From the human T2T-CHM13v2.0 reference genome, Homo sapiens, in contig CP086569.2 in the NCBI GenBank assembly GCA_009914755.4, positions 19,296,001-19,360,000 of the forward strand: a DNA stretch of 64,000 nt. The letters run 5' to 3'. The notes below the pieces were generated by a model. That model worked only from the letters and a program-made list of their open reading frames with translations. It was not told the origin of the DNA and searched no databases. The position numbers and the translations under genes were made by a program. This document shows, one piece after another, positions 27,727 to 62,215 of the stretch (the stretch's first letter is position 1; each line of letters begins with the position of its first letter).

Positions 27727-27947
27727 ATATATATATATATGTGTGTGTATATATATATATACACACATATATATGTATACACACACACATATATATACAC
27801 CACATATATATATCACATATGTATATACCACATATATATACCATATATATACACCATATATATATACACACCATATATATATACACACCATATATATACA
27901 CACACCATATATATATACACACACACACCATATATATATACGCACAC

Positions 27948-27985
<38 letters not shown>

Positions 27986-27986
27986 A
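27727..27986. repeat. Compound (TA)n/(CA)n/'ATATACACACC' microsatellite inside the L1
   Basis: About 260 bp of 'atatatacacaccatatatatacacacc...' ending in (CA)n. The ORFs across it (e.g. 27739-28167) are low-complexity by-products of the repeat. Confidence 0.95.
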
Positions 27987-34250: not shown

Positions 34251-36430
34251 CAAAGGCAATGGTATTGACTCTAACTGTCCCAAAAACTGAGGAATGGCGG
34301 CTCTATAAACTGTGTACCAGGAGGCTGCCAGAGCCTGACCTACACAATACGTGGGGAATGCTTTTCGAGGTACCAGGTGTATGCGCTGAGGACAACCCCC
34401 CTGGACTTGTTGCAAACAGACCCCCAGTGATAATAAAGCTTAAATCTCATGCTGCCCCGGTACTAGTCCGTCAACACCCCCCACCCAGAGAGGCAATTGA
34501 TGACATAACGAAACATTTAAATCGGCCCTATAAACATGGGATTATAATAAAATGAAAGTCTTCCTGGAATACTCCTCTGTTGTCTGTGCGCAAGCCAAAT
34601 GGTGAATACAGGCCACTGCAGGACCTCCAGGAGGTAAACAAGGCCACTGTCACTATCCATGCCATAGTACCCAACCCATACACAATGCTGGGACAGATTC
34701 CTGCTGACGCCGCCTGGTTCACGTGTCTGGACTTAAGGCATGCTTTCTTTTGCTTGAGACTTGCTCCCCAAAATCAGCCTATATTTGCCTTCTAGTGGAG
34801 ACAATCGCAGTATACCTGGACAAGGCTGCCGCAAGGGTTTAAGAATTCTCCCACTATTTTCGACGAGGCTTTGGCTTCCGACCTTGAGGCTTTTGCGCCA
34901 CCTAGTGACAATTGTGTGCTATTACAACACATTGATGATTTGCTCTTCGCTGCCCCCACGAGGGAGAAATACCTCTAAGGAACAGAGAGCCTTCTTCACC
35001 TGCTTTGTGAAGCTGGTTACTAAGTGTCCAAGGACAAGGCAAAAGTCTGATTTTGGAGGTTGAATATCTAGAATTCATGGTATCCCAAGGCCAGCGCAGA
35101 CTTAAAAGTGCATGCAAGGAGGCTGTGCGTGCATTGCCCACCCCAGTTACAAGGCAGCAGCTCAGGAAATTTCTAGGTGTAGCGGGATTCTGCCGAACCT
35201 GGATTCCAAACTTCTCCCTTACAGCAAGGCCCTTATATGAGACTACCAAAGAAAAAGAAAAAGAGGGCCCCTCCTATGGAAAAAGAAACAAGAAAGGGCC
35301 TTGAAAGGTATAAAGGAAGCTCTCATCCAAACTCCGGTGCTAGGGTTGCCAGATGTAAAAAAGCCCTTCCTTTTGTATGTGGATAAACAAAAGGGAATGA
35401 CAGTCGGACTCTTAGCTCAATTGTTGGGTTCTTGGCATCAGCTGGTAGCATACTTACCCAAAAGACTGGACTTGGTGGCCTTAGGTTGGCCCCACTGCTT
35501 CAGGGCGTTGGCAGCTACTGCAATCCTTATAGAAGATGCCAACAAGCTAGCCCTAGGTCAAAAGTTAATAGTTCAGGACTCACATGCTGTAATCACCTTA
35601 ATGGAGCAAAGAGGACATCATTGACTGTCCAATTCTAAAATGCTAAAGTATCAAGGGCTTCTGTATGAAAATACCCAGATAACACTAGAGACTGTAAATA
35701 CCTTAAATCCAGCTACCCTGCTGCCTGTGGAGAAACGGGATTGAAAGGACAGTGGGTTGCCTCACTGCTGGCAGGAACTTCCCCACTGTTGCATAAATAC
35801 GGTGGACAAAGTCTTCTAGAGCCAGGAAGATCTCAGATATATCCCCTTGGAGAGCTCAGATGTTAAATACTTCACTGATGGTAGCAGTTTCATAAGAGAT
35901 GGGGTACAATATGCAGGGTATACAGTACTGATCCAACACTCGGTGGTCCAGGCTCAGGCCTTACCTTCTGGGACTTCTGCTCAGAAGGCTAAATTAATAG
36001 CATTAACCAGAGCACCATTATTGGCCAAGAAAAAAAGTAAACATATATACTGAAAAAAAAAGAAACATATATACTGATTCAAGATATACTTTTACAATCC
36101 TGCACACCCATGGGGCAGTATACAAAGATAGAGGAGTTTTGACTACTAAAGGCCAAAGAAAAAAATTTACAATTATTAAAAGCCATATAGGCTCCAGAGA
36201 AAGTGGCTGTCATTCATTGCAAAGGACACCAAATTGGGAAAAGCTGAGACACAGGGCAATAGAAAGGCAGACCGAGAGGCTAGGCAGGCAGCAATGATCA
36301 AGGCTTTACCTGAAGAAAAAACTTTAGCAATTCCTCTCCTTATAGAGCCCCCTTGGCTGGAGCTACCCAATTACTCTTCAGTAAAAAACTTGGTTTTGTC
36401 AGAAAAACAATATATATATATATATATATT
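34250..36430 (+). pseudogene. pol: pol remnant: reverse transcriptase and RNase H. Integrase is deleted except for its C-terminal tail.
   Basis: 'NGEYRPLQDLQEVNKATVTIHAIVPNPYTMLGQIPADAAWFTCLDLRHAFFCLRLAPQNQPIFAF' matches MLV RT closely. 'LGLPDVKKPFLLYVDKQKGMTVGLLAQLLGSWHQLVAYLPKRLDLVALGWPHCFRALAATAILIEDA' is the connection region. 'YFTDGSSF...LPSGTSAQKAKLIALTRA' and 'GNRKADREARQAA' are RNase H. Split over at least 4 frames. Confidence 0.9.
36409..36429. repeat. (TA)n microsatellite at the integrase deletion point
   Basis: 'tatatatatatatatatatat'. The flanking coding sequence jumps from just after RNase H ('LIEPPWLELPNYSS') to the integrase C-terminal 'LKVDGG' motif. Confidence 0.9.
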
Positions 36431-36533
36431 AAAGGTGGATGGTGGCTGTTGTCTGACAGCAGGCTAGCCATCCTGGAAGTTGAGTAGTCCACACACGGCC
36501 AAAGCTAAGAGGGCCATCTCTGAATAAGTAAAT

Positions 36534-38880
36534 ATGAACACAATTTATAACCCTCATTATAATTATGTTAATACTGATTTTTCTGTTGCTTTGTTATTAC
36601 TGCAAATGCTGCAAATGTCTATGCCCAGAGGAAGGTTTCCCATGCCCACGTGTAGTGTAAGCATGTTTCTAATACATACACTGATGTTGCTATCATTTCT
36701 GCCTATGCTAGAAGGGGAAAAATCTTTAGAGGGATGCCCACACTGTGTACACACTACCTCGGTAAAAAATACCATAGTTAAAACTCTACTGTACCATACC
36801 TACTATGAATGTACAGAAACCAAGTTAGGGACATGCACATACAACCAGACCACCTGTTCAGTCTATGACTGAGGAAATAATCAGCTGTATGTATCTTATG
36901 ACCCTGAGCCCTTACCCTGTGAATTCTGGTTTGAGGTACATATTAAATCAGAAAAGAAAAAAAAACTTATAGCTCAAACAAAAGAAACCTCACCCTCCTA
37001 TAAGGGGCCTATTTCCTTGTACTTTAATTCCTGCCATGCTGCATATGTTCCTAATCCTAAAAAAAACAGAAGCTGTCTGCAATGGTTTAACACAAAAGAG
37101 GCTTAGCAGAAGCAGACCTAAACATCTGTATGAAAAAACACAAATCGGATGCCCAGACTGTAATATTCAGTGTTCTATGCTAACACAGCTCCAACACTTA
37201 TATTCAGGAAGGACTCTTCTGCTAAGTAGTATGCCAACCAAACCAAATTCTAAGACAAGGACATGTACTCCTTTAAATTTTACTTTCCTAAAGCCAGAGC
37301 TATCTTTTTGGTCTACAGGACAGATGACACTATTATGGGTTAATAGACAAGGAGCAGACCTTGGAGTTCTACTACTAATTGCCAAAAAGAATAGAAGGAC
37401 TCAAATGCATCCAACCCTGAAATTCCGGGTTTATAAGTCATTCTGTAAGCATTTTGATCAGTCAGTGACTGAGTTTCCTTCATCAACCAAAAACTTATTT
37501 ACTCAACTAAGTAAAAACATAGCTGGCAGCTTAGGAATTTCCTCATGCTACGCATGTCAAAAAACTGATATGGGGGACCAGTTGCTATGGGAGGCTAAGA
37601 AATTGATGCCACAAGTAACTTCACTTCACCTAACCATGCCAGTGAACCCACAGCCTTAGCCAGTGTTTGGTTGTTAAAAACCTCCATAATTGGAAAGTAC
37701 TGTATCGCCTAATGGGGAAAGGCTTTTCACAGAGGCAGCAGGAAAAACAACCTGCCTAGGACAACAGTATTATGATAAGACTAAAAACAGAACTCTAGGG
37801 AGAAATGCCCAGAACGACTCCTACTTACCAGATCCAAATGCTTTCTCTTGATTCTCTACCCTAAGCCACTCTTGGCATCAGCTAAAGACTCCAAATGCTT
37901 GGAAAGCACCCTCTGGCCTATATTGGGTCTGTGGAGCATGGGCATATCGGCAACTGCTGGCTAAATGGACAGGGGCATGTGTGTTAGAAACAATCAAGCC
38001 ATCCCTCTTTTTAATTCCTCTAAAGCAAGGGGAACTCTTAGGGTATCCAGTTTATAGTAAAAGTTAAAGAAACTAAAAAAATACATAATCACAAAACTAA
38101 ACACAAATGTGAAAAAGTGTAAACACAGAAGACTACAAAGATAATAAATGGCCTCCTGAAAAAATCATTAAATATTATGGGCCAGCTACTTGGGTGCAAG
38201 ATGGGTCATGGGGGTATCGTACCAAAATCTATATGCTCAACCACATCATAAGGTTACAGGCAGTCCTAGAAATTATAACCAATGAAACGTCAAGGGCACT
38301 AAATTTATTGACAATACAAGCAACACAAAAAAATGCTATATATCAAAATAAATTAGCTTATCTCTTAGCCTCAAAGAAAGTATGTAAACATTTAATTTAA
38401 CCAACTGTTGCCTAGAAATTGATAATAATGGCCAAGCTGTCATAAAATCCACAGCTAAAATGCACAAGTTGGCCCATGTTCCAGTTCGGACTTTGTCCAG
38501 ATGGTTCCCGGATTCCTTGTTTGGAAAATGGTTCTCAACCTTTGGGGAATTCAAAACCCTCATTGGTGGGTTTTTGTTTATTCTTGGCATCTGCCTCATC
38601 CTCCCTTGCCTTTTAACTCTGTATATTAGGAACATTCAGTCAACTGTAGAGGCAGTAGTAACCCAACACAGTACCACACAGTTGATGGCATTAACCAAAT
38701 ATCAGCTGCTGCCAGTAAAACTATCTTCAGTCTGCACTTTTCTCCAGTGCATTCTGAAACACTGGAATTTCTTTACCTTCGAGGCTCTGAGAAAAAAATA
38801 TGGCTTATATTATACTGCACAAAGGCATGGAAATTACACTAGCTCTAAGACAAAAAGATGTGGCCTTCTGAGATAAAAGT
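36534..38880 (+). pseudogene. env: env remnant (SU and TM)
   Basis: ORFs 36534-36872 and 37036-37659 are SU-like. ORF 38194-38400 has a decayed immunosuppressive/CX6C region ('[19 protein letters not shown]'). ORF 38460-38876 has a membrane-spanning stretch ('[28 protein letters not shown]') and a cytoplasmic tail. Interrupted by stops. Confidence 0.75.
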
Positions 38881-39833
38881 TTATTTTAATAGTATATAAT
38901 TATCAGGTCTCTTTTTCAGATGAAAGAGCCATTAGTATGAGTTTCTGATGGACAAGCTTTCTTTACCTTAGGCGATAACCCAGACCTTTGTAAGCATTGT
39001 AAAATATTTTCTGGCCTTTTGGCAGTCTTGTCAAGCAAGGTTACAGAAGATAATTTCCCAAAATCAGAGAGACAAACCCCTAGGTAGCCCTTAAATGCAA
39101 CTTTTAAACACCCTACCTGCCCCTCTTTTAAGGGCTTTCCAATATTCCTATCATGAGTTTCTCTCCCTGTGCCACCCAATAAACCCCCACCTTCACTGTA
39201 GGCCCTGCAGAAAATGCCAGATGGTACTACTAAACTTCAGGTTTCCTTTTTATTGCAGGATTAAAAATAAATAAATATACATCTAGTCAAGTTATCTGAT
39301 TACTCTGATAGATATATAGAGACATTCTGAAATCTAACAGAGGTGTTTCATTTTATGCAGAAAGATGCCACATTACTCCTAAACCCAATTCTATATTTGG
39401 CAGAAAATTTGGCAGCTTTTCAGGCAACAGAAAGATTTGAAGATGAACAGGGTATTTACTACAGCCAGTCTAAAAGTATACAGGGAAAAATCTAGAACAA
39501 TGGAGGGTGAAAGACAAAAGTAAGGTAAACAGCAGAATCTTTATTCCCAACAGGAAGAAAGACATTCCTCTTTGAAAACTTAGTTGGAATACATACACGC
39601 AATTTAAATGATTAAGTAGTGTGAGAACAAGTGTAAAGTTTCAGCAAATGTTTAGTATATAAAGAAGAGACAATTTTGCCAGCAAATTGCTACATGATTT
39701 CAGAGCTACTAATGCACAGATTAAATCAATGTGTGCATTACAACAAGGTCTGCAATTCCTGGCAGCCATTCCAAGGGACTGGTCTCTCATAGGAGTAGAT
39801 CTTTAAAATTCTTTTCTTACTATACCCTTACAT

Positions 39834-40010
39834 GTGAAGGATAAGCCTTCATTTGCCTTCTCTGTGCCTTCTATCAAACAAAAACAGCTTGTTTCTCATT
39901 ACCAGTGGAAAGTTTTACACAAAAACATGCTCATCAATCCTATGTTATATCAACATTTTGTAGGACATTATGCCATGAGAATCCGACCTCATGGCATAAA
40001 CTTCACTGAC
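39834..40010 (+). pseudogene. Betaretrovirus-like (class II, HERV-K-type) RT fragment
   Basis: 'FAFSVPSIKQKQLVSHYQWKVLHKNMLINPMLYQHFVGHYAMRIRP' against HERV-K/MMTV RT 'FAFTIP(A/S)(I/V)N.KEP..R(F/Y)QWKVLPQGM.NSPT.CQ.(F/Y)V'. This is a different RT lineage from the pol at 34-36 kb. Confidence 0.55.
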
Positions 40011-41227
40011 ACTGGTGAAGAAACTTTAGCATCTCTTCACTACATCTCACTGGGATTCAATCCCAATGTGCAGCAGACCTTGCTTGGAACAGGCTTTAGA
40101 CCACCTTTCCTCAATGACATTATCAAGGAAGACAGTTCCAGTTCAGGAGTTGATAGGGAAGGCAGCACTCCCCTTTATGGATGGCAGCTTTTGTGTCGGA
40201 ACACTATTTAATTATAGTAATTCTGCTCAACACAGTTTTAATGTTACTTTTGTAGAAAATATTACCACTCAATTTGCAATTTGTGTTTTTAAACCTTACA
40301 TTTTTTTAGCAGCAAAAAAAAAATTAAGGTAAACGATGCCCATTTGACTTGTGATTCCTTTCAACCGTATAATTCCCTTAATTGTAGCACAATAAAAACA
40401 TGCAGCATATCCACCCTAATAATTCTAGGTTGCAACCCCCAATTACGGATTCTTGTAAATCTGTCTGAGTCTTCCGTGGCCACCTCTGGTTTACATTTTG
40501 TAAATCTTTTTCTTACTCAGCTTACTCATAGTGCTTGTAGAACCTTAGGCATGATAATTTTTGTGAAAGTCTCCTTAGGTACATTAATCACTTCTGTTGT
40601 GGTGTCCTTAGTAGCAATGCACAGCTCCATTCAAACAGCTAAATATGAAGAAAATAGGATGTGTGCAGCCAACCAGGCATGGATGCTTAAAAATAAATGA
40701 AACACGGAGATACAAATGGAGGTAGCAATGTTAAAGACTATAGTTCTGTGGCTAGGAAAACAAGTACAAAGTTTGTAGTTGCAGCAGCAATTGCATTCTC
40801 ATTTTAACTATACTTGTATTTGTTTAACCAATTTGGAATAAAACTAACGTGAATATCAATGAAACCTTGTAAAGTCCCATTTGCAGGGGGCTTTCACATC
40901 AAATGTTACTTTTGATATGAATGATTTACAAAGTAAAATCCTTAATTTGAATAAACATTCAAGTATTTCAGCCCTCTTTAAAAACTTGGGTGGTATTCCA
41001 GCAGGGTTTAGAGAGCCTTAAGCTTTGGATCTCCTCCAAACAGCACCTCAATGTCTTTTCTGTGATTATCAGAGTGATATTATTGTGTCTCCATTTTATG
41101 TCTATTGTCTGTAAAATCAGCTGGACCACCAAATAGCAATTGAGAGCTGCACAGTCTGCAATTACCTTTACTCAACTAATTCAAAAACAAAAAGGAGGAG
41201 ACGTTGGAGGTCAAAAGAATGAGGGTT

Positions 41228-44790: not shown

Positions 44791-45399
44791 TCCATTTTTT
44801 CTTACGCTAAAACTTTTTAAATAAACATCCACGTTTGCTGTGAAACTTTTCTCAGTCTCTTTTGCTACTTTATTCCCCTCAGCCAAATTCTTTCTTCTGA
44901 GGAGGCAAGAGTTGATGTTACTGCAGACCATGATAGATTTGACAGCAGTAACAGATACTTTCACTGGTAACAGGTCGAGGAGCTGGTGGATAGTGTGGCT
45001 GGAGTACATGCCTAGTATGTGGTGGGCCTGGCCCCAGGCAGTTCTGGACTGTGGAGGGACCAGAACCCCATTCTGAGAGCACTCTGTGGAATGCTGAGGA
45101 AGAAGTTTTGTCTTTTTAGTGAGGTGAAGTTCCTTCACATAATATAAAATTAACTGTTTCTTAATGAATTCTTTAGTGATCCTTAGGACATGCACATTTG
45201 TATGCAACAACCACCTCTAAGTTCCAAACTGTTTTCATCATCCAGAAAAGAAAAAACCCTACCTATTAAGGAGCTACTACCCAATCTGTCCTCTTTCTGA
45301 CACCTAGCAACCAGTAATCTGCTTTTTGTCTCTATGGATTTACCTATTCTAAATTTTATATAAATAAAATCATACAGTATGTGAATTTTGTCTTCAACT

Positions 45400-45850
45400 T
45401 CTTAAATCAAAATGGTTTTGAAATTTCTCCACATTGTAGCATTAGTGTTGTAATCCTTTTTACAGCTGAACATTATGCCATTGTATGGATATACTACATT
45501 TTGCTTCTTACTTTTTGTTGGTGAATATTTATTTGGTTTCTTTCCACATTTTAGTTATTGTGAATGCTGCTATGAACATATGTATACAGCTTTTGTTTGA
45601 ATACCTGTTTTACATTTTGTGTGTATAGCTTGGAGTGGATTTTCTGCGTTCTTTGGTAATTTTATATTTAGCACTTGCAGAACCACCAAACTACTTCCCA
45701 CAGCAGTGGAAGCATTTTACTTTCAAATTTTCCCACTTCCTTTCAACAACTGTTAGCTTTTGTTTGTTTGTTTGTTTTTTGGAATTATAATGGATGTGAA
45801 GTGATATCTTACTGTGGTTTTGACTTGCATTTCCATGAGGTTAAAAGGGG
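45400..45850 (-). mobile_element. L1M 3'-region fragment (antisense)
   Basis: 'ctgaacattatgccattgtatggatatactacattttgcttcttactttttgttggtgaatatttatttggtttctttccacattttagttattgtgaatgctgctatgaacat' is antisense L1 ORF2 C-terminal sequence. Confidence 0.6.
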
Positions 45851-46904
45851 CAGGAGGCATAAGAGTTGGCGGAGCAAGAGGAAGGGTCAGGACAGCCAAG
45901 TGGAGAGGGTAGGCAAGTGCCAGGGACCACAGTGGTTGTGGCAGCCTCTGCCCAGTCTCAACTACAGCAGTGAATAGAAAAGTGAGCCCATGTTTGTAGA
46001 GTGGATTTTTTCACAATCTAGCTGTTTCAACAAGGAGAGCATGTGATTCGGGGGACTTCTCTCCCTCTTCTCATGCATCCCCTATATTCAGTCCTCACTG
46101 GGCACCTGCCTGGAGCCAACCTGGTCTCAGCTCCCAGACAAAGGAGAGCTTCATGCCCTGGGAACCTGATCCCTGTGGCCCCTAATGGACACAGGCCTGG
46201 AGGGAGGAGCACAGCTCATATGTGCTACAACAAGGACTGTAAAGTATGGAAGTGGCCACAACATTTAGCCCAGTCATACCAGGCCACATGAACCAGGCTC
46301 ACCAGTCACGGGCCTCAGCCTCCCTCTTGAGACAGGAACTGCCACAACCATCAATCTCAACAGCCTTTCCAGGATTTAATAGGCCAAACACCTTGGAATT
46401 CTGCTGATTTTAAATTCTGCTGTCATTCCACATCTCACGCAACTGTAGCGCTAGAGACTGGAGTCAGAATCTGCAGGTTGCTTTCTCCTGCTGGTGCAGG
46501 AGAATGTGCCAAGTCAGTCTCCACTTATGGCTGGTACACAGAGCTCCACTTGTGGCTGCTTGGCCACCAGCATTTAATTATTTCCACTGTTACCTCTAAG
46601 GTTTACCAAACTGTATCTGTGGTGTAAGCTGTCACTACCTTCCCTTCCTTTGGGCCTTCCAGAGACTACCTCAAAACACCTATCACACTCAAAAACAAAC
46701 TACTGTGGATTTGGTCAACTCTGGGTTGACATTTAGAAAAGCTGTGGCCTCAGAAAGCAGCTTCCTTTCTGCTCCAAATCTACTAGGCTCTACAAGGAGC
46801 ATTAAGATGGCCCTGCGCTCAGACACAGAAAAGTTCTGGGTGCAAGTCTTAGTCCTCCCTTCTGCAAACCAGATTGATGACCTAATACAGTACCCAGCTG
46901 CCCA

Positions 46905-49900
46905 GTGCCTCCCTAAACCTAAACTTAATCATAACATTAACCTTAACCCTGCTTCTACCCCTAATCCTAATCCAGGATCCCTAACACTAACAGCAACCTC
47001 AAGCCTCAAACTTGACCCCAACATCAACCCTATGCCTAACCACTCACCAAAACCGAAGCCCCAAAACAAATCCCAACTCTAAATCCTAACTCTAACAGCT
47101 AAACCTGAATTTGACCCTGACCCTGATAATAACCCTAACCCAAGGGTAATCCAAACATTACATAAACATGAACTTAAACCCTAAGACTAAAACCCTAACC
47201 CTAAAGCCCTAACCCTAAGACAAAAACACTAATCCTAAACAAAAAACCCTATCTCTATCCATTAAAAGCTAATGTTAACCCTAAAATATTACCCCTAACA
47301 CTAACCACAACACCTAACACCTAGTCCTAAATTCTAGCTCCTAAACCTGCTTTCTGAACAGGAACATAACACTCATATTAAGTCTAATACTAAACCCTAA
47401 GTCCAATCCTAGAACTCTTATTACAACCCTAACCCTACACCTACCCAAAACCTAAACCTAGCTGTTACATAAAACCCAAACCCTAATCCTAACATTAATC
47501 TTTAGCCCAACCCTAACCCTACACCTAACCATAACCCCTAACCCTAAGCCTAAATAGTAACATTAACTCTAACCCTAATGTGTTACCCAATTTGTACCCT
47601 GATGCAAACCCTAACCCTAATTCTAACCAATAATCATAACCCTAACTGTAATCATAATTCTAAACATAACCTTAACCCCTTAATCTAAATTTAAACACTA
47701 ACGATAACTATAACCCTAAAGCATAACCTACTCCTACCCTAATGTTAACAGTAACATTAAACAATAATTCTAAACATAATCCTAATTCTAACACCATCTC
47801 CTTTCTATAACACCAACAGAACCATATCAACAAGCCCAATGAAAACACGAACAGTAACACTAAACACCAACCCTAACACTAACCCCTGACACAAATTCTA
47901 TATCCTAAAGCTAACCCTAACCCTAAATTTTAACCCATATCCTCTAGCCCTAACCCTAAAACTTACTCTATCTGGTAACCTAAAGGTAATCCTTACCCTA
48001 AATACTAACCCTAACTTAACTCTAAAACTAACCTTGAAACCTTAACCCAAAGCCAATCTCTTATTTTTATAAGTAATCTTAATGCTAACAATGAAACACT
48101 GAAGAAGTGAACCTAACCATAAGCTCAACACATAACCCTAACAATAACACCAATCCTAACTGTAAAATCGTAAATCCTGAACTTTAACACTAAAAGTAAC
48201 CTAACTCTAAACCCATCCCTAAAAATAAGCCTAAACCATGTCTCTAAAACTAAAACCTAACCATAATCCTAATCATTTCATAAATTGTAATCATAACCCA
48301 TAATCCTAACCATTAACCAAAACCCTAACCCTAAATGCTAAACTAAACCTTAGTCGCTAACTGTAACACTAACACAAACGCTAATCCCTAACACTAATCC
48401 TAAACCCTAACACTAACAGAAAACTCAATCCCTAATACCTACCCCAAATCCTAACCCTAACTTCAACACTAACACCAACACCAAATGTATGCCCAACCCT
48501 TACCACTATTCCTAAAGCTTTTACCGTTAACCCTACACCTTCATGAACACAACCCCAAATATAAACATAAACCTTACCTTACTCTAAACAGAGATTCCTA
48601 AGCCCAAATCCTAACCCTAACTGTAAAACTCACCCTAAAAAATACTCTAAACATTAGCCAAACCATAAACCCTAACTCTAACACTAACACCCAATCCCAA
48701 GCCCTACTCTAACCCTAACACTAACCCTAATCCTAATCTTTAGCCAAATGCTTTAGCCAAACACTTTAAAGATCATCCTAACCCTAACTAAACCACAACC
48801 AGGTACCCAACGTTAAACTGTAAACCAGCACTAAACCCTAACCCTAAAATTTAACACTAAACCAAACACTTTAATCATAACACTAACACTAAACATAACG
48901 CTCACCCTACTTTTAACCCTCATTCTGAATCCTAAACCTAACCTTAATCCAAACCGTAATGCGAACCCTTACACTACCACCTAAACCTAACCCTAATTCT
49001 AACTATAAAATCTGAAATCCCAAAAACACTTAAGATAACTTTAAATGCATCCCATAACTCTGAAACTCAGACTAAACACTAACCCCAATACCCTTATCCT
49101 AACAGTAAAACGAACATAATTCTAACATAATCTTAACCTTGGCACTAAACCCAAAAATAACTCTTACCCTAAACACTGAACCTAATCATAACCTTAACCA
49201 TAGATCATAAACCCTAACCATTAACACTAACCCTAGCCCTAAAACAAAACCTGTAACCATAATTAAACCTAAACCCTAAACCTAAACCTAATCTTAGCCC
49301 CTAACTCTAGAAAAACCATAATACCAACACTAACCATAAATGCTCACCCCTAACCCTAACAATAAACAAAACGCTGACACTAAACTCTAACCCTAGTCCT
49401 AAACTGTAAACCCAAACCTAAGTGTAAACCTAATCATGACCACTAACCTCAACCTCAAAACAGACCCAGCACTCTCATGCTGAACCTAAATACAAAGTCC
49501 TAATCGTATGTCCAACACTAACACTAACATCTAGCCAAAAATGATGAACATTAACCTTAACAATAACCCTGAACCCTAACCCTGAACCCTGAACCCTAAC
49601 TCTGAATATGACCATAAGCCCCATCCTAATGCTAAATATTAACCCAAACACTGAAACCTAACACTAACACTCTAACCCTTACCCTCACACTAACCCTTAA
49701 CACCAACCCTAACCCTGGCCATGATCCTAATTCCTAACCTCTAACTGTAAGCCTGGCTTTTTATGCTAAACCTAAGCATAACCCAACCCCAAACCTAACC
49801 TCTAACCCTGATTATGAACCTTAACCCTGAAGTCAACCCTAACCCTAGCCCATAACCCTAATCTTAACTCTAACTGCAACCGTAATCCTACCACAGCACT

Positions 49901-50070
49901 AAATCTTATCTCAAGTCCAGCGTTAACCCTCAGTCTAATACTGAAGTTGTTCTGCAATTGTAAACCATATCCTAATCCTCCGTTTCTATCCTATCCTTAA
50001 GGTTACCCCATTATGCTTAAAAAACTTTAAATACATCCTCTATGACTCTAACCTCTAACCCCTTATACCC
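46905..50070 (+). repeat. Degenerate telomere-like hexamer array, (CCCTAA)n/(TAACCC)n, about 3.2 kb
   Basis: Continuous run of 'ccctaa' units and single-base variants (cctaa, cactaa, ccttaa, ctctaa, accctaa, tcctaa). The C-rich strand reads 5' to 3' on the plus strand. ORF 46705-47082 is a by-product of the repeat. Confidence 0.9.
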
Positions 50071-50737
50071 ATAAGAATACAAGCAGTCATACCTCTTTCT
50101 AAGCCCAAGTGAGTATTGAATTAAACATATGATATCACTAGCATAAAAAACTAAATATTACTGAATCTGATAATTATAGACATCATAAAGTTTAACCAAA
50201 TAATAGTACATGGAATTTTTTACACAGCGAAGACATTATAGACCACAATATTTAAGAAATTTTCTCAGAAAATCAAAGAATTTTTACCATTCCAATGCCA
50301 TCCCTTTTCAATATATTATGTAAATCAAATGATGGAACCATGTTTGTCTCGACTTTTACAGAAAGTAAAGACAGCATATTTAACAATTAAAAATCCAATA
50401 AACTGTGGTTCAAATTTTTTTCACGTGCTAAAACGTCTTTATGCAAAACCCATAACAATCATCTAAATTGTTGAGAACCAAGGCTTTAAGATGAGGAACA
50501 CTGCACTGATGCTTAACTATATTAAACCCCTTACTAGAAGTCCCAGTAGGTCAACTATATAGATATACTTATATATGTATATTTACACACACACAACCAT
50601 TCATATGCAAAAGAGAAAAGTAAAACTACTCACAGATCTCATACACAGAAAACCATGAGGAACCATCTAGAAATTATGAAATCTAGTAAACAAATTAAGC
50701 AAAATAACAGGAGAAAATTTCAACAAATGAAATCTTT

Positions 50738-51030
50738 TTTTTTTCCTTTTTATGGCGTTATGCTGTTGTTGCCCAGGGTGGAATGCAATGGCATGATCTT
50801 GGCTCACCACAACCTCCATTTCCTGGGTTTGAGTGGCTATCCTGCCTCAGCCTCCTGAGTAGCTGCAATTCAGACATGCCGCACCATGCATGGCTAATTT
50901 TGTATTTCTAGTAGAGACTGGATTTCTCCATGTTGGTCAGACTGGTCTCAAAGTCCTGACCTCAGGTGGTGTGCCCGCCTTGGCCTCCTAAAGTGCTGAG
51001 ATTACAGGTGTGACCCACTGCACCCGGCCA
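50738..51030 (-). mobile_element. Alu, antisense
   Basis: Poly-T followed by the reverse-complement Alu ('ggcgttatgctgttgttgcccagggtggaatgcaatggcatgatcttggctcaccacaacc...ccactgcacccggcc'). Confidence 0.95.
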
Positions 51031-52154
51031 CAAAATCTATTTCTATTCACTAGCAATAAACCATGTAAAAATGAAATTAAGACAACAATTTTATTTCTCA
51101 AAAAAACAAGAGGCTGGAATCTTTCCCCCTGCCCTGGAAGCCACAGATGCAGGCAGCTGGGGGAGGGACAGCCTTGGAGTTGAGGCTGTGCTGCTACATT
51201 GGGACCTGGCTGCAGTGGCTATGGGGCTAACAAGAAACTCTTCAAGTTTCTGAGAAATCAAAGTAGAATTACTTTAAAACGTAATGGATGAAGAAGAGAA
51301 AACTTCCAGTGCTTTTGAAAGCCCTAACCCCATGATGTCATATAAATATCTTTTGAGTCATAATTTTTTTATAAAAGAACATGAACAGACATCAGCAATA
51401 ATGAAACCCTTGTTGAGTGGCCCAGGTCAATTTGCTGAGAAGAAAACCATTGAGGTCAGTTTGAGAGACATCCCTTCATAAGTACTGTCAAGAGCATGCA
51501 CATATTTTACCTACACATTTTACTACACCTACAGCTCCACAGGGATTTTTAAATTCCCATTTCATCTGAAACTGCACTAGAATTTCTGACAGCTGTAAAC
51601 TTTCTAGATTGTATGTAAATACAATTGATGTTTTATAAATACAATATATTGATATAATAAAATACATTTTAATCAACTGGAAACTCTTTTCAGTGTTTAA
51701 GACCAGCAGTTGAGTTTGTACTTTTTCACAGGTAGTACATTCACTGTATGAAATGTAACTATAAAATTAATTGCTAAGAAGGTTGTCTTCTGTTTTTTTC
51801 ATAACAGAGTTGAAATTTGTTTGCAATGTCAACAAATTGAGGACATTTTCACAAATGCAGAAATAAACAAATATGGCAATTCATAGGTGGTTTTGCTTTA
51901 TCCTATGGATACAATTTTTAAAATGAAAAACGATCTAGAAAATGCTGAAAACTAGAAATAATAAACATGTACTACAATTAAACAATTTTGCCAAGTGTTT
52001 TTATGTATTTAGTTGCTTGTTAATAAAACTATTTTTATGTTGTGGCTGCCCATAGCATTGATGGAGTTATACAAAAAATTGCATTATAGTTATTTTCATA
52101 CCTTAGCCGAAACATTGATTTACTTTTAATGACCCTAATGCAAAAAGTGTTTTA

Positions 52155-52403: not shown

Positions 52404-52484
<81 letters not shown>

Positions 52485-52520
52485 AAGGGAGAAAGAGAGA
52501 AGAAAGAAAGAAAAAAGAAT
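52404..52520. repeat. (GAAA)n/(GA)n compound microsatellite (Alu tail expansion)
   Basis: 'gaaagaaagaaagaaagagagagagagag...' for about 115 bp. It produces the poly-Glu/Arg and poly-Leu/Ser ORFs at 52346-52621. Confidence 0.95.
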
Positions 52521-55389: not shown

Positions 55390-56290
55390 AAGAGTAGGAA
55401 TGTTATGTCAGTATTACTGGTGTTACATCTTTATGATGAGTGTTATATCAGTAACTGTGGGTGTTACATCAGTATTCTGGTTGTTCTATTTGTATTACAA
55501 ATGTTGTATTATTATTATGGGTGTTAATATTACAGGTGTCACTTCAGTGTTTCAGGTATATTTGTACCTCAGTATGATATATTGGAATTCTGAATGGTGT
55601 ATTGGTATTATTAGTGTTACAGTTGTATTACAGGTGTCAGGACAGCATTACAAGCGTTATATAAGCATTATGGATGTTTCATTTGTACTGTGGATTGCAT
55701 ATTGGTGTTATGAGAGTTACAATTGTATTATGGGTCTTAGATCAGTATTACAGATGTTATATTTGTATTTCGGATGCTATACTGGTATTATGAGTGTTTT
55801 ATTGCTGTTATGAATGTCACAGTGTCATTATGGGTGTTGTTAATATTATAGGTGTCACTTCAGTATTTCAGTTGTTATATTTGTACCGCAGGATGATATA
55901 TTGGAATTCTGAATGGTGTATTGGTATTATTAGTGTTACAGTTGTATTACAGGTGTCAGGAAAGCATTACAAGGGTTATATAAGTGTTATGGATGTTTCA
56001 TTTGTATTGTGGATTGCATATTGGTGTTATGAGAGTTACAATTGTATTATGGCTCTTAGATCAGTATTAGGGATGTCATATTTGTATTTCGGATGCTATA
56101 CTGGTATTATGAGTGTTTTATTGCTGTTATGAATGTTACAGTGTTATCACGGGTGTTAGATCAGTATTTCAGGTGTTACATTAGTATTACAAATGTCACA
56201 TCTGTATTATGGGTGATATAATTATTTACAGATGTTATATTTCTATTACAGATGTTATATGACAGATGATACATTTGTGTCAGGAGGCCA
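55390..56290 (+). repeat. Two-level minisatellite: subunits of about 20 bp arranged into a unit of about 323 bp, with at least 2 full and 2 partial copies
   Basis: 'g(t/g)gttacagttgtattacaggtgtcag...' subunits. The block 55519-55841 recurs at 55842-56160 with only scattered substitutions. ORFs 55247-55813 and 55794-56132 are near-identical repeat products (...MGVNITGVTSVFQ.YLYL.MIYWNSEWCIGIISVTVVLQVSG.HYK.YIS.MDVSFVLWIAYWCYESYNCIM...). Confidence 0.85.
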
Positions 56291-57620: not shown

Positions 57621-60600
57621 CATCATCTACATTAGATATTTTTCCTAATGTTATCTCTACACTATCCCACCACCCACCACCATGTTATGTTTTCCTCTCT
57701 GTGTCCATGGGTTCCCATTGTTCAACTCTCATGTAAAAATGAGAACCTGTGGTGTTTGGTTTTCTATTTTTCTGATAGTTTGCTGAGAATGATGGTTTCC
57801 AGCTTCATTCATGTCGCTGCAAAAGACATGAACTCATCCATTTTTGTGGCTGCATACTGTTCCATGGTGTATATGTGCCAGCTTTTCTTTATCCAGTCTA
57901 TCATTGATGCACATTTGGGTTGGTTCTAAGTCTTCACTACTGTGAATAGTGCTGTGATAAACATACATATGCATGTGTCTTTATAGTAGAATGATTTATA
58001 GTCCTTCGGTTATATGCCCAGTAATCAGATTGCTGGGTCAAATGGTAATTCTAGTTCTAGATCCTTGAAGAATCACCACACTGTCTTCCACAAGGGTTAA
58101 ATAATTAACACGCCCACCAACACTGTAAAAGCCTTCGTATTTCTCCACATCCTCTCCAGCATCTGCTGTTTTCTGACTTTTTAATGATCGCCATTCTAAC
58201 TGGAGTGAGATGGTATCTCACTGTGGTTTTGATTTGTATTTCTCAAATAATGAGTGATGATAAGCATTTTTTCATATGTTTGTTGGCTGCATCAAAGTCT
58301 TCTTTTGAGAAGTGTCTGTTCATATCCTTTGCCCACTGTTTGATGAGGTTGTTTGGTTTCTTCTTGTAAACTTGTTTAAGTTCCCTGTAGATTCAGGATG
58401 TTAGTCTTGTTTCAGATAGATAGATTGCAAGATTTTTCACCCATTCTGTAGGTTGTCTGTTCACACTGAGGATAATTTATTTTGCTGTGCTGAAGCTCTT
58501 TAGTTTAATTAGATCCCATTTGTCAATTTTGGCTTTTATACCATTGCTTTTGGTGTTTTGGTTTTGCACATGCTTATGTCCTGAATGGTATTGCCTGCGT
58601 TTGCTTCTAGGAATTTTATGGTTTTAATTCTTACGTGTAAGTCGTTAATCCGCCTTCAGTTGACTTTTGCATAAGGTGAAAGGATGGGGTCCAGTTTCTG
58701 TTATCTGCATATGGCTAGCCAGTTTTCCCAATACCATTTATTAAAGGGAAAATCTTTTCCCCATTGCCTGCTTGTTTCAAGATTGTCAAATATCACATGG
58801 TAGTAGATGTCACATGGTAGTAGATGTGTGGTATTATTTCTGAGGCCACTGTTCTGTTCTATTGGTCTATATATCTGTTTCGGTACAAGTACCATGCTGT
58901 TTTGCTTACTGTGGCCTTGTAATGTAGTTTGAAGTCAGGTAGCGTGATGCCTCCAGATTCATTCTTTTTGCTTAAGATTGTCTTGTCTATGCAGGCTCTT
59001 TTTTGGTTTCATTTGAACTTCAAAGTAGCTTTCTTTTTCCAATTATGTGAAGAAAATTAATGATAGCTTGATGATGATAGCATTGAATCTATAAATTACT
59101 TTGGGCAGTATGGCCATTTTTCCAATATTGATTCTTCTATCCATGAGCATGGAAGCTTTTTATTTTTCATCTCTTTTTATCTCTCTTATTTCCTTCAGCT
59201 GTGGTTTGAAGTTCTCCTTGAATAGGTTCTTCACATCCCTTGTTAGTTGTATTCCGAGGTATTTTATTCTCTTAGTAGCAATTGTGAATGGGAGTTTACT
59301 CATGATTTGTCTTTCTGTTCTCTCTTATTGTGTGTAGGAAAGCTTGTGATTTTTGCACATTGATTTTGAATCCTGAGGCTTAGCTGAAGTTGCTTACCAG
59401 CTTAAGGAGATTTTATGCTGAGATGATGGGTTTTCTAAGTGTACAATCATGTCATCTGCAAACAGAGACAATTTGACTTCCTCGCTTGTGATTTGAATGT
59501 CCCTTATTTCTTTTTCTTCCCTGATTACCCTGGCCAGAAGCTTCAAATACTAGGTTGAATAAGAGTGGAGAGAGAGTGCATCCTTGTCTTGTACCAGTTT
59601 TCAAAGGGAATTCTTCCAGTTTTTGCCCATCAGTATATTGGCAGTGGGTTTGGCATAAGTAGCTCTTATTGTTTTGAGATATATTCTGTACATTTCTACT
59701 TTATTGAGAGTTTTTATCATAAAGCGGTGTTGAATTTTGATGAATGCCTTTTCTGCATCTATTGACATAATCATGTGGTTTTTGTCACTGGTTCTGTTTA
59801 TTTGGTGCATTAGGTTTATTGATTTGCATATGTTGAACCATCTTTGCATTTCAGGGATAAAGCTGACATGATCGTGGTGGATAAGCTTTATGATGTGCTG
59901 CTGGATTGAGTTTGCCAGTATTTTATTGAGGATTTTCACATCAATGTTCATCAGGGATACTGGCCTGAAATTTTCTTTTTTTGGTGTGTCTCTGCCAGGT
60001 TTTATTATCAGGATGATGCTGGCCTCATAACATGATTTATGAAGGATTTCCTCTTTTTGCATTTTTTGTAATAATATCAGAAGGAAGGGTATGAGTGCCT
60101 CTTGTTATGTCTGATAAAATTTGGCTATGAATCTGTCTGGTCCTGAATTTTCTTTCTTGGTAGGCTATCAGTTACTGCCTCAATTTCAGAATTGTTAATA
60201 GACTATTCATGGATTTAACTTCTTCCTGGCTTAAACTTGGGAGGGTGTATGTGTCCAGGAATTTATCCATTTCTTTTAGATTTTCTAGTGTATTTGCATA
60301 GAGGTGTTCAGAGTATTATCTGATGATCAGCAATGATATTCCCTATGTCATTTTTTATTGCATCTATGTGATTTTTCTCTCTTTTCTTCTTTGTTAGTCT
60401 GGCTAGTGGTCTATCTATATTGTTGATCTTTTCAAAAAACCAGCTTACGGATTTATTGATTTTTGAAAGGTTTTTGTGTCTCTGTCTTCTTCAGTTCTGC
60501 TCTGATCATAGTTATTTTATGTCTTCTGCTAGGTTTTGTATTCGTTTGCTCTCACTAAACTAGTTCTTTTAATTTTGATGTTAGGGTGTCAATTTTAGAT

Positions 60601-62215
60601 CTTTCCTGCTTTCTCTTTTGGGCATTTAGTGCTATCAGTTTTTCTCTAAACACCATTTTAAATGTGTCTCAGAGTTTGTGACACATTGTGTCTTCATTCT
60701 TATTGGTTTCAAAGAACATCTTTATTTCTACCTTATTTCAGTATTTACCCAGCAATGATTTACAGCCTGCTCCTAAATGTTCAGTTTCTATGTAGTTGTG
60801 CAGGTTTGTGTGAGTTTCTGAATCCTGGGTTCTCATTTCATTGCACTGTGGTCTGGGAGGCTCTTTGCTATAATTTCCATTCTTTTGCATTTGCTGAGGA
60901 GTGTTTTCCTTCCAATTATGTGGTCAGTTTTTGAATACATGTTATGTGGAACTCAGAAGAATGTATATTCTGTTGATTTGGGGGTGGATAGTTCTGTAGA
61001 TGTCTATTAGGTTTACTTAGTCCACAGCTGAGTTCAAGTCCTGACTATCCTTGTTAATTTTCTGTCTCATTGATTGCTGGCTATTCTTTCTCTGAAGCTA
61101 TATCCTCAAGGGGCATCTGTCAGATGCTAGCCAGTGCTCTCCAATACAAGGTGTCTGTCGGCCCCTGCCAGGAGGTGTCTCCCAGTCAGGATACACAGAG
61201 GTCAGGGATCCACTTGAGAAGGCACTCTGACCATTAGCAGAGCCAGTGCACTGTAATGGGAGGTGTGCTGCTCCTTCAGAGCCATCAGGCGGGGATGTTG
61301 AAGTTTGCTGAAGCTGCATCCATGGCTTCCTTTTCCCCCAGGTGCTCTGTCCCAGGGAGATGGGGGTTTTATTTGTAAGCCCCTGACTGGGGCTGCTATC
61401 ATTTGTTTCGAAAATACCCTACCCGGAGAGAAGAAATCTGGCAGTCTGGCCACATCAGCCTTGCTGAGCTGCAGTTCAAACTTCTCTGAGGCTTTGTTTA
61501 CACCATGAGGTAAAGCAGCCTACTCAAGCCTCAGCAACGGAAGATGCCCATCCCCCCACCAAGCTCCAGTGTCCCAGGTAGATCTCAGACTGCTGCTGTG
61601 CTGGCAGCGAGAATTTCAATCTGGTGAACCATAGTTGGATTGCCACCATCGGGGATGGCACCTGCTAAGCCAGATCACTTGGCTCCTTGGCCTCCGCACT
61701 CCTTTTCAGGGGAGTGAACAGTCCTGTCTCCTTAGCATTCCAGGCACCACTGGGGTAATAAAAACAACAACAACAACAACAACAAAACACTCCTACAATT
61801 AGTTCATTGTTTTTTCTAACAACCCCATTTTTGTGCTTGAAACCCACGGCCCTCATGGTGCAGTTACCAAACGCAATCTCCTGGTCTGCAGGTTTTCAAG
61901 ACCATGGGAGAAGCACATTTTAGGCACAGGGTGCATGGTTCCTCAGGCTAACTCCCTCACAGCTTCTCCTGTGTAAATGAGAAAATTTCCCGACCCATTA
62001 GGCTTCCCGGGAGAGGTGATGACCTACCCTGCTTCAGCTCACACTCCATGGGCTGCAGCCACCATTCAACCAGTCCCTATCAGATGAACAGTGTACCTCA
62101 GGTGGAAATGCAGGAATCACTCACTTTCTTCATCAATCTCCCTGGGAGCTGCAGTCTGGAGCTCTTTTTCTTCAGACGTCTTGCCAGCAATTCCCCCTTT
62201 CCTGTTTTTTTCTTT
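57620..62215 (-). mobile_element. L1PA-type LINE-1 (antisense) running from near the 3' end to the 5' UTR start
   Basis: Begins about 90 nt inside the L1 3' UTR ('gcgcccatcaacccatcatctacattagatatttttcctaatgttatc...'). It runs through ORF2 and ORF1 antisense. It ends with the reverse complement of the L1 5' UTR start ('...cagtgtacctcaggtggaaatgcaggaatcactcactttcttca...ctgggagctgcagtctggagctc'), followed by a poly-T flank. The ORFs are disrupted. Confidence 0.9.
59601..60062 (-). pseudogene. L1 ORF2 reverse-transcriptase domain remnant
   Basis: '...[93 protein letters not shown]...' is the L1 RT consensus. Confidence 0.85.

What the first reader, a model, noticed from the sequence alone, without database searches (positions are those of the whole stretch)
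46905..50070. 3.2-kb degenerate interstitial (CCCTAA)n telomere-like array
About 3.2 kb is made almost entirely of the telomeric hexamer CCCTAA (the C-strand, read on the plus strand) and its single-base variants. It has no other recognisable content and unique or L1M-like sequence lies on both sides. Decay is uniform along the array, roughly one to two substitutions per unit. That points to an old array, not a recent telomerase addition. Only one orientation is present, so this is not the head-to-head arrangement seen at an ancestral telomere fusion. It could be (a) a subtelomere-type degenerate interstitial telomeric sequence, (b) a relic of an ancient telomere captured internally by a rearrangement, or (c) a telomerase-mediated double-strand-break repair patch that later expanded. 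Arrays like this are associated with fragility and recombination hotspots. The strongly degenerate units may still bind shelterin components weakly.
Basis: seen in the sequence. Interest (0 to 1): 0.6.

Follow-up and report, generated by a model that had tools for sequence, protein, structure and literature searches.

The report
Decayed telomere-like repeat in Y palindrome
This is a real but heavily decayed 3-kb run of the telomere hexamer that sits inside palindrome P5 of the human Y chromosome, has a mirror-image twin in the other arm, and is already listed in a published catalogue, so it is an ordinary genomic relic and not a new kind of element.

Summary
Window 46911-49890 (up to 50074 with lenient scoring) is about 510 tandem units whose best consensus, out of 556 units tested, is CCCTAA. 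Identity to the perfect array is 69%, against 55% for shuffles (z about 35), and it is even along the array. Only the C-strand orientation is present. There are no higher-order repeats, no coding potential, no RNA family hit and no transposon inside.

New context: the spacing of exact CCCTAA hits (62 hits over 5,959 bp) matches one entry of a published T2T-CHM13v2.0 table exactly, chrY:19,342,179-19,348,138. This puts window position 1 at chrY 19,296,000. A mirror G-rich entry at 18.37 Mb and CDY2A/CDY6P/CDY8P symmetry place the array in the distal arm of palindrome P5, about 485 kb from its centre. The male-specific Y holds 20 of 64 such large non-terminal clusters genome-wide.

One outside homologue (a Logan contig) shares many non-consensus variants. 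Most of the decay therefore predates a duplication or split.

Variants are scattered randomly, so a once-homogeneous array of at least 3 kb decayed in place. The location is not subtelomeric. A short telomerase patch that expanded late is disfavoured. Function is most likely none. Novelty is low.

The parts
46911..50074 (+). Degenerate (CCCTAA)n array. The C-rich strand is on +. About 510 units; the strict core is 46911-49890.
   Evidence: Wrap-around alignment, unit scan and local-alignment bounds; hexamer density.
46180..52138 (+). Span of the 62 exact CCCTAA hits that forms one cluster at a loop threshold of 3660 bp. It equals the published cluster T2T-CHM13v2.0 chrY:19,342,179-19,348,138.
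   Evidence: (62 hits, first at 46180, last at 52133) against (length 5959, 62 repeats, loops 5587).
46719..47125 (+). 407-bp tract across the left junction that is 99.8% identical to the outside homologue L001. The sequence on either side is only 86-90% identical. It is a candidate gene-conversion patch.
45850..46910 (+). Left flank with no recognised repeat. It is slightly GC-richer (0.46-0.51). Bases 45745-46638 are absent from L001.
   Evidence: No Pfam hit for its ORFs.
45318..45850 (+). L1 3' fragment upstream of the array.
   Evidence: Recognised by eye in the translation. L001 bases 285-348 align to 45680-45744, and the start of L001 is also L1-like. Not confirmed by a profile.
50767..51029 (-). 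Alu element, the first recognisable repeat to the right of the array.
   Evidence: blastn with an AluY consensus written from memory, 76% identity. Sub-threshold SRP/Alu-type Rfam hits lie at 50770-51030.
46705..47082 (+). The only ORF of at least 60 aa that touches the array (125 aa). It runs from the flank into the repeat and is judged spurious.
   Evidence: No Pfam family. The only database relative is an ORF on a 1.3-kb Logan contig.

Best explanation
The feature is a very old, non-coding, telomere-like simple-repeat array. It fits the descriptions 'degenerate interstitial telomeric sequence' and 'diffuse telomeric-like cluster'. It lies in the distal arm of palindrome P5 of the human Y chromosome.

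Proposed history:
1. It began as a largely homogeneous block of at least 3 kb (about 500 units) of CCCTAA.
2. It then decayed in place by independent point substitutions and small indels. Losses fell mainly at the three C positions, and insertions outnumbered deletions.
3. Already decayed, it was copied along with its flanks by the segmental duplications that built the Y amplicons.
4. It is now kept identical to its mirror copy in the other P5 arm by arm-to-arm gene conversion.

It most likely has no function of its own. How the original block arose is not settled by this sequence. It could have been an internalised chromosome end or a long ITS.

Shown here: the anatomy, the decay pattern, the location, the mirror copy, and decay before duplication. 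Inferred: neutrality, gene conversion, and paralogy of the other Y arrays.
For: Anatomy and significance.

Decay in place:
- No higher-order repeat; the best internal self-matches are only 65-83% identical.
- Identical variant units are no more often neighbours than in 2000 shuffles at any lag from 1 to 12 (|z| at most 1.6).
- Canonical units are spread fairly evenly, thinning somewhat toward the 3' end.
- C positions are conserved at 58-65% and T/A/A positions at 80-89%.

Non-coding:
- One junction ORF of at least 60 aa.
- No Rfam family at gathering threshold, and none in the array at E up to 10.
- No CpG island anywhere in the window.

Location:
- 62 exact CCCTAA hits spanning 5,959 bp match chrY:19,342,179-19,348,138 in the FuzzyClusTeR table.
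- This puts window position 1 at 19,296,000, a multiple of 32,000.
- A G-rich entry of identical size lies at 18,370,882-18,376,841.
- Two further mirrored pairs give the same centre, about 18,859,520. That centre falls inside CDY7P, with CDY6P/CDY8P placed symmetrically and CDY2A nearby. From established knowledge, CDY2 marks P5.

Decay before duplication:
- Contig L001 aligns colinearly to the flank plus 750 bp of array.
- In the diverged part, 101 of 423 identical sites are shared non-consensus bases. Only 15 changes are specific to the window and 44 to L001.

Gene conversion: a 407-bp, 99.8%-identical patch sits inside 86-90% identity.
Against: - The chromosomal assignment rests on an exact numerical match to a published table, not on a sequence alignment.
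- The other Y clusters are known here only by size and position, so their paralogy with this array is not shown.
- L001 comes from a run of unknown species. Its mosaic could be an assembly chimera.
- Naive dating gives an awkward age. A simulation gives K of about 0.35-0.4 substitutions per site, which at my assumed Y rate of about 1.6e-9 per year is more than 100 million years. That is old for fast-turning-over Y ampliconic sequence, and 3 kb without any transposon insertion is also notable.
- The substitution spectrum is not the typical neutral one. C->A is about equal to C->T, where simulation gives a ratio of 0.45. G content is 5.7% against 9-10% simulated, and ts:tv against L001 is 38:35. 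The array may therefore mutate unusually, or may have been heterogeneous from the start.
Confidence: 0.8

Rival explanations
1. Relic of a true chromosome end or former pseudoautosomal/subtelomeric domain. A kilobase-scale terminal or subterminal telomere array was internalised in one orientation by an inversion or translocation during sex-chromosome or donor-autosome evolution. It then decayed and was later amplified. This rival concerns only the origin step and is compatible with the best explanation.
For: - The size before decay was kilobase-scale and homogeneous, as expected of a telomere and not of a repair patch.
- Orientation is single.
- The male-specific Y carries 20 of 64 large non-terminal CCCTAA/TTAGGG clusters, and PAR1 carries three more per sex chromosome.
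Against: - No subtelomeric hallmarks lie next to the array: no CpG-rich 61/29/37-type repeats and no CpG island.
- The present position is far from both Y ends.
- No orthologous data could be obtained.
Confidence: 0.3
2. Telomerase-mediated insertion at a double-strand break (the short-ITS mechanism), followed by large expansion through slippage or unequal exchange.
For: This is the documented origin of most human short ITSs (preprint 10.1101/2025.05.15.654290; review PMC6410037). A few local secondary duplications exist in the array: a 34-mer x2.2 at 47176-47251, a 44-mer x2.2 at 48364-48461, and (AACCCTG)x6 at 49565-49606.
Against: - Human short ITSs have 2-25 units. A T2T survey of 522 ITS loci tops out at 1,840 bp, whereas this array is 3.0-3.2 kb.
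- Variants show no neighbour clustering or higher-order structure, so no expansion took place after mutations began.
- No TERC-derived flank is present.
Confidence: 0.12
3. The array is not especially old. It is hypermutable (for example through oxidative damage to the GGG strand or error-prone replication of telomeric DNA), or it was heterogeneous from birth, so the 30% divergence overstates its age.
For: - Excess of C->A (equivalent to G->T on the G strand): 239 against 246 C->T, where a standard spectrum run through the same alignment gives a ratio of 0.45.
- ts:tv of about 1 against L001.
- No transposon insertion in 3.2 kb, while the window has about 10 Alus.
- Y ampliconic sequence turns over fast.
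Against: - Divergence from L001 is 14.2% in the array and 10% in the adjacent flank (73/515 against 8/80). This difference is small and the flank sample is tiny.
- Misaligned repeats inflate apparent transversions.
- Absence of an Alu in 3.2 kb is expected about 60% of the time at this window's Alu density.
Confidence: 0.2
4. Functional element: a shelterin or TERRA-related site, or a sequence that helps palindrome or amplicon recombination.
For: - 32 matches to the TRF-type site YTAGGGTTR and 4 potential four-run G-quadruplex motifs lie on the minus strand.
- Degenerate 2q14 repeats do bind TRF1/TRF2 (review PMC6410037).
- By my own tally, such arrays are enriched in Y amplicons.
Against: - The longest perfect run is two units.
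- Decay is uniform and looks random.
- There is no promoter-like CpG island.
- The enrichment is explained by amplification of a few ancestral arrays.
Confidence: 0.05

Closest known systems
Diffuse ('fuzzy') telomeric-like repeat clusters of the T2T human genome (Aksenova et al., FuzzyClusTeR preprint, doi 10.64898/2026.03.19.712643)
   Same: This very locus is in their filtered list of canonical-motif clusters: chrY:19,342,179-19,348,138, 62 repeats, score 49.8, SSR 0.163. [quoted passage not shown]
   Different: In the sections I read, the paper gives no per-locus analysis. It does not note the Y-palindrome context, the mirrored pairs, or the concentration in the male-specific Y.
[quoted passage not shown]
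   Same: Long and degenerate, with many variant hexamers.
   Different: It is not in a subtelomere, and no subtelomeric duplicon or TERRA-promoter repeats lie beside it. It is also several times longer than the 'several hundred bp' that I recall (from memory) as typical of that class.
Short ITSs inserted at double-strand breaks by telomerase (Nergadze et al.; summarised)
   Same: Single orientation, embedded in ordinary euchromatic sequence.
   Different: About 510 units against 2-25, 1.9 differences per unit against mostly below 1.4, longer than the largest of 522 catalogued loci (1,840 bp), and no TERC-derived flank.
Fusion ITS at 2q13-q14
   Same: Degenerate telomere repeats far from a chromosome end.
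   Different: That site is head-to-head. Here no TTAGGG-strand segment exists: the best local score in the whole window is 22, against 1367 for the array.
Heterochromatic ITSs of hamster and other vertebrates
   Same: Amplified telomere-like DNA at internal sites.
   Different: Those are blocks of hundreds of kb to Mb in (peri)centromeric heterochromatin, homogenised as satellites. This is a 3-kb decayed array without turnover.

Membership tests
Diffuse telomeric-like cluster (FuzzyClusTeR definition) | Canonical-motif cluster at loop threshold 3660 bp that passes CS >= 1.2 and SSR <= 0.5 | tested here: met
   My count (62 hits, 5,959 bp) equals the listed entry with CS 49.8 and SSR 0.163.
Short ITS (telomerase/DSB-repair insertion) | Few (about 2-25) mostly exact TTAGGG units | tested here: not met
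   About 510 units, 47 of them perfect, 1.92 differences per unit.
Short ITS (telomerase/DSB-repair insertion) | One-step insertion, shown by an empty orthologous site in related species | not testable with these tools
   No primate genome sequence was reachable. Scans and look-ups returned only L001.
TERC-ITS subclass | Flank retrotranscribed from telomerase RNA next to the repeats | tested here: not met
   blastn with an hTR sequence written from memory finds only the template region (positions 45-58), which is the repeat itself. Telomerase RNA is not among the Rfam matches at E up to 10. After 30% decay, a short flank could escape detection.
Subtelomeric ITS | Lies within a subtelomeric domain | tested here: not met
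   Inferred position is chrY 19.34 Mb of 62.46 Mb.
Subtelomeric ITS | Degenerate TTAGGG-like units | tested here: met
ITS with TERRA-like promoter (segmental-duplication class, preprint 10.1101/2025.05.15.654290) | Adjacent CpG-island promoter built of 61-, 29- and 37-bp repeats | tested here: not met
   No CpG-island-like 200-bp window anywhere in the 64 kb. No tandem repeat of those periods lies near the array.
Fusion ITS | Two arrays head to head (C-strand then G-strand) | tested here: not met
   Zero TTAGGG rotations in the array. The best TTAGGG local score in the window is 22.
Heterochromatic ITS | Very large (100 kb to Mb) homogenised block in (peri)centromeric heterochromatin | tested here: not met
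   About 3.2 kb, no homogenisation or higher-order repeat. It sits among ordinary L1 and Alu elements.
Human Y palindrome P5 arm sequence | Near-identical inverted copy placed symmetrically about the P5 centre | tested here: met
   Mirror cluster of identical size and count at 18,370,882-18,376,841. Three mirrored pairs share a centre at about 18,859,520, which lies in CDY7P, with CDY2A nearby. This was tested through published tables, not through sequence.

The most novel reading that the evidence does not exclude
The roughly 20 kilobase-scale telomere-like arrays of the male-specific Y are one ancient paralogous family. They comprise three per P5 arm, one per arm of the next palindrome, and several in AZFc that repeat at the 1.62-Mb amplicon spacing. 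On this reading they descend from a single former chromosome end or pseudoautosomal-type domain, and they were seeds or preferred breakpoints in the build-up of the Y amplicons. They would then be usable as markers to reconstruct amplicon history and may still act as ectopic conversion partners, as the 407-bp identical patch hints.
Probability: 0.1. Interest if true: 0.45.

Novelty: already known. Interest (0 to 1): 0.2.

Why it matters
On its own it matters little. Degenerate interstitial telomere-like arrays are a known class, and this locus is already in a public catalogue.

Three points are modestly useful:
- The array is longer than any locus in a recent 522-locus T2T survey of human ITSs, whose search method probably misses such decayed arrays.
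- By my tally, nearly a third of all large non-terminal telomere-motif clusters in the human genome sit in the Y amplicons. The papers I could search do not discuss this.
- The shared-variant pattern shows that such arrays can serve as fine-grained markers of amplicon duplication and gene-conversion history.

Tried and rejected
Attempts to find related sequence:
- Exact-product look-ups of four window ORFs in the assembly collection found nothing.
- A 1,700-residue concatenation of flank ORFs used as a protein query scored no hits.
- Exact DNA pattern scans of JGI metagenome contigs and GTDB genome contigs with a 22-mer from the conserved flank were empty.

Literature checks that led nowhere:
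- The FuzzyTel supplementary lists are truncated before chrY, so the predicted 3,228-bp, 175-motif cluster could not be checked.
- The chr12:132.195 Mb cluster (5,942 bp, 59 hits) is similar in size, but I could not test whether it is related.
- The held part of the T2T-Y supplementary tables lists nothing at chrY 19.29-19.35 Mb.
- No supplementary ITS table is held for the TERRA/ITS preprint.
- Searching for the run accession ERR6619293 found no paper.
- Literature searches linking telomeric repeats to Y amplicons or AZFc found nothing relevant.

Readings considered and rejected:
- Protein-coding or low-complexity exon. There are stops in all frames, no Pfam hit and no annotated relative.
- Plant-type 7-mer CCCTAAA array. 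Its score is 711 against 1319.
- Dodecamer higher-order units. They score lower than the hexamer.
- Structured RNA.

One unconfirmed impression: Pfam did not confirm my by-eye reading that ORFs at 34-40 kb are retroviral.
Full report

Yes. Between 46905 and 50070 the six rotations of CCCTAA occur 326 times (103 per kb), against 1.1 per kb in the other 61 kb. The rotations of TTAGGG do not occur at all. Base composition changes sharply to A 39%, C 32%, T 23%, G 5.7%.

I scored 556 candidate repeat units of 4-6 bases by wrap-around dynamic programming. AACCCT (the same necklace as CCCTAA) scored best at 1319. Next came AAACCT at 965 and AACACT at 827. The plant-type heptamer scored 711 and two dodecamers scored lower than the hexamer.

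Alignment to a perfect array gives 2220 matches, 799 mismatches, 147 inserted and 34 deleted bases, which is 69.4% identity. Twenty shuffles give 55% identity and a score of -1294 +/- 76, so z is about 35. Identity per 200 bp stays within 67-74% and drops to 58% only in the last 166 bp.

Autocorrelation peaks at lag 6 (0.50 against 0.31 expected). It then drifts to 12-13, 19, 25, 31 and so on, a mean period of about 6.15-6.2, because insertions outnumber deletions four to one.

The array parses into 510 units. Of these, 357 are 6 bases long and 99 are 7 bases long. Only 47 are perfect, and no perfect run exceeds two units. The mean is 1.92 differences per unit.

Local alignment sets the bounds at 46911-49890 (strict scoring) or 46911-50074 (lenient). 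Absolute register is lost at about 180 indels, but the hexamer structure is kept throughout.

**2. Internal anatomy**

There is no higher-order repeat:
- Self-comparison gives only weak, scattered matches of 65-83% identity. There is no match to the rest of the window.
- TRF reports only small local duplications: a 34-mer x2.2, a 44-mer x2.2 and (AACCCTG)x6.
- Identical non-canonical units are neighbours no more often than in 2000 permutations at any lag from 1 to 12 (z between -1.2 and +1.6).
- Canonical units are spread fairly evenly, at 2-6 per 50 full units and thinning toward the 3' end.

This pattern is expected if a homogeneous block decayed in place by independent mutations. It is not expected of an array that kept turning over or that grew after it had begun to mutate.

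Decay is position-specific. The three C positions are conserved at 58-65% and T, A, A at 80%, 85% and 89%.

The array is non-coding:
- Only one ORF of at least 60 aa touches it. This is a 125-aa frame running in from the left flank, with no Pfam family.
- No Rfam family reaches its gathering threshold anywhere in the window.
- At E up to 10, the only hits within 1.5 kb are Alu/SRP-type matches at 50.77-51.03 kb.
- There is no CpG-island-like segment in the whole window.

**3. Where it is**

The window is primate DNA. It holds about ten Alu copies, 76-89% identical to an AluY consensus that I wrote from memory. It also holds L1 reverse-transcriptase fragments at 20855-21253 and 59601-60062 (Pfam RVT_1, E 3e-14 and 4e-15).

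A preprint on telomere-like clusters in T2T-CHM13v2.0 (doi 10.64898/2026.03.19.712643) lists clusters of exact CCCTAA joined at gaps of up to 3660 bp. Applying that rule to the window gives one cluster, 46180-52138, with 62 hits over 5,959 bp. The table holds exactly one C-rich entry with those numbers. It is NC_060948.1 (chrY) 19,342,179-19,348,138, length 5959, 62 repeats, loops 5587.

Subtracting the window offset gives 19,296,000 for window position 1. That is a multiple of 32,000, as expected for a tiled scan, so the match is very unlikely to be a coincidence.

The G-rich list holds a mirror entry of identical size at 18,370,882-18,376,841. Two further mirrored pairs are present:
- 18,743,232/18,970,486, with 65 hits.
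- 18,629,814/19,085,019, with 34 hits.

All three pairs share a centre at about 18,859,520. In the T2T-Y gene table CDY7P spans 18,858,131-18,860,042, CDY6P and CDY8P lie symmetrically about it, and CDY2A lies at 18.93 Mb. CDY2A/B mark palindrome P5 (established knowledge, Skaletsky et al. 2003).

The array therefore lies in the distal arm of P5, about 483-489 kb from the centre. With an arm of 495.5 kb (from memory) the outer boundary of P5 should fall near window 60-61 kb. I could not test this.

**4. A family on the Y?**

Counting non-terminal clusters with at least 34 canonical hexamers in both lists gives 64 genome-wide. Of these, 20 lie between 8.7 and 26.8 Mb of chrY (11 C-rich and 9 G-rich; my tally). 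They comprise:
- Three per P5 arm, one of them in the opposite orientation.
- A mirrored pair centred at 19.567 Mb, which by position is the next palindrome, P4.
- Several sets in AZFc that recur at spacings of 1,619,950-1,619,956 bp. That is the scale of the gr/gr direct amplicons (from memory).

I could not fetch these sequences, so their relationship to the present array is not shown.

**5. One outside homologue**

A protein search with the junction ORF returned a single ORF (98% identical) on a 1,342-bp Logan contig from run ERR6619293, here called L001. L001 aligns colinearly with window 46639-47656, which is the flank plus 750 bp of array. The alignment is a sharp mosaic:

| Window segment | Identity | Mismatches |
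|---|---|---|
| 46639-46718 | 90% | 8/80 |
| 46719-47125 | 99.8% | 1/407 |
| 47126-47656 | 85.8% | 73/515 (ts:tv 38:35) |

In the diverged part, 423 sites are identical in both copies. Of those, 101 carry the same non-consensus base. Only 15 differences are window-specific departures from CCCTAA, 44 are L001-specific and 8 are departures in both. The polarisation leans slightly towards the window, because the consensus register was fitted to the window.

Two conclusions follow:
- Roughly four-fifths of the window copy's decay happened before the two copies separated. The array was already degenerate when it was duplicated or when the lineages split. Such arrays can therefore spread as passengers of segmental duplication and need not arise independently.
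- The 407-bp near-identical patch inside 86-90% identity looks like a gene-conversion tract between paralogues in one genome. Under uniform 13% divergence its probability is below 1e-20. An assembly chimera cannot be excluded, and the species of the run is unknown.

L001 also begins with an L1 3' fragment, like window 45.3-45.85 kb. It lacks window 45745-46638.

**6. Age and mutation spectrum**

I decayed a perfect array in silico with a typical non-CpG mammalian spectrum (my own approximate rates) and analysed it with the same aligner. This reproduces 69% identity at K of about 0.35-0.4 substitutions per site. At my assumed Y rate of about 1.6e-9 per site per year, that means well over 100 million years.

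The real array differs from the simulation in three respects:

| Measure | Observed | Simulated |
|---|---|---|
| C->A : C->T | 239 : 246 (ratio 0.97) | ratio about 0.45 |
| G content | 5.7% | 9-10% |
| A positions conserved | 87% | 76% |

The low ts:tv against L001 points the same way.

Several explanations are possible: strong AT-biased mutation without biased gene conversion, damage specific to the GGG strand, an array that was variant-rich from the start, or alignment artefacts in repeats. I cannot separate these, so the age is uncertain. Divergence from L001 is not clearly higher in the array (14.2%) than in the short stretch of flank (10%, n = 80).

The absence of Alu insertions in 3.2 kb is unremarkable at this window's density of one per 6.4 kb.

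**7. Origin and mechanism**

- A head-to-head fusion is excluded.
- A subtelomeric ITS is not supported, given the position and the lack of CpG-rich subtelomeric or TERRA-promoter repeats.
- The telomerase break-repair route that explains human short ITSs fits poorly. Those have 2-25 units, and the largest of 522 ITS loci in a T2T survey is 1,840 bp. There is no TERC-derived flank, and there is no sign of expansion after mutation began.
- What remains is a kilobase-scale homogeneous block that became internal. This could have been a captured chromosome end, or a long ITS amplified early. It then decayed and was later copied with its surroundings into the Y amplicons.

Today it is most simply a neutral passenger, kept identical between the P5 arms by arm-to-arm conversion. 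It retains 32 TRF-type sites (YTAGGGTTR) and four potential G-quadruplex motifs. Weak shelterin binding is therefore conceivable but untested.

**8. Comparison with the known, and verdict**

The kind is known. It falls under degenerate ITS and 'diffuse telomeric-like cluster', and the locus itself is catalogued. It fails the defining features of short, TERC-type, subtelomeric, TERRA-promoter-linked, fusion and heterochromatic ITSs, as listed in the membership table.

Three things are not in the papers I could search. They are the P5 context, the mirrored and amplicon-spaced copies, and the fact that the male-specific Y holds nearly a third of all large non-terminal clusters. These are modest additions.

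Interest is low, at about 0.2. The most novel reading still open is that the Y arrays form one ancient family tied to the origin of the amplicons. I give this about a 10% chance.

Noticed in passing
window 46719-47125 and L001:420-826: A 407-bp tract is 99.8% identical between the window and the only outside homologue. It is flanked on both sides by 86-90% identity. This looks like an ectopic gene-conversion patch across the flank/array junction, or else an assembly chimera.
   Followed up: partly
window 45745-46638: 895 bp present in the window is absent from contig L001. In L001 an L1 3' fragment abuts the sequence homologous to window 46639 directly. This is an indel difference between the two copies.
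   Followed up: partly
window 46905-50070: The substitution spectrum is unusual. C->A is as frequent as C->T, A->T exceeds A->G, G is only 5.7%, and ts:tv is about 1 against L001. A standard neutral spectrum simulated through the same aligner does not reproduce this.
   Followed up: partly
published table (T2T chrY), not in the window: Telomere-motif clusters in AZFc recur at spacings of 1,619,950-1,619,956 bp: 24,850,932/26,470,888; 25,044,492/26,664,445; 25,182,598/26,802,548. A four-copy set of 3,670 bp with 39 hits also exists. By my tally, the male-specific Y holds 20 of 64 large non-terminal clusters.
   Followed up: partly
published table, chr12:132,195,084-132,201,026: A C-rich cluster of 5,942 bp with 59 hits is very close in size to this one (5,959 bp, 62 hits). 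This may be coincidence or an autosomal paralogue.
   Followed up: no
window about 60000-61500: If the P5 arm is 495.5 kb long (from memory), the outer boundary of palindrome P5 should fall here, about 10 kb beyond the array. An L1 RT fragment lies at 59601-60062.
   Followed up: no
window 55522-56260: A 319-bp unit repeated 2.1 times (91% match) overlaps a 20-bp minisatellite (GTATTACAGATGTTATATTT, about 10 copies) at 56064-56260.
   Followed up: no
window 27727-27988: A compound AT/AC microsatellite with 12-17-bp sub-periods. It produces two long, spurious, overlapping ORFs on opposite strands.
   Followed up: no
window 34103-40211: Several ORFs of 125-207 aa look gammaretrovirus-like by eye (for example the protease/RT-junction motif in 34103-34555). 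Pfam returned no family for any of them.
   Followed up: partly
window 52406-52511: An (AG)n microsatellite of about 27 tetramer copies, next to an Alu-like segment at about 52.8-53.0 kb.
   Followed up: no
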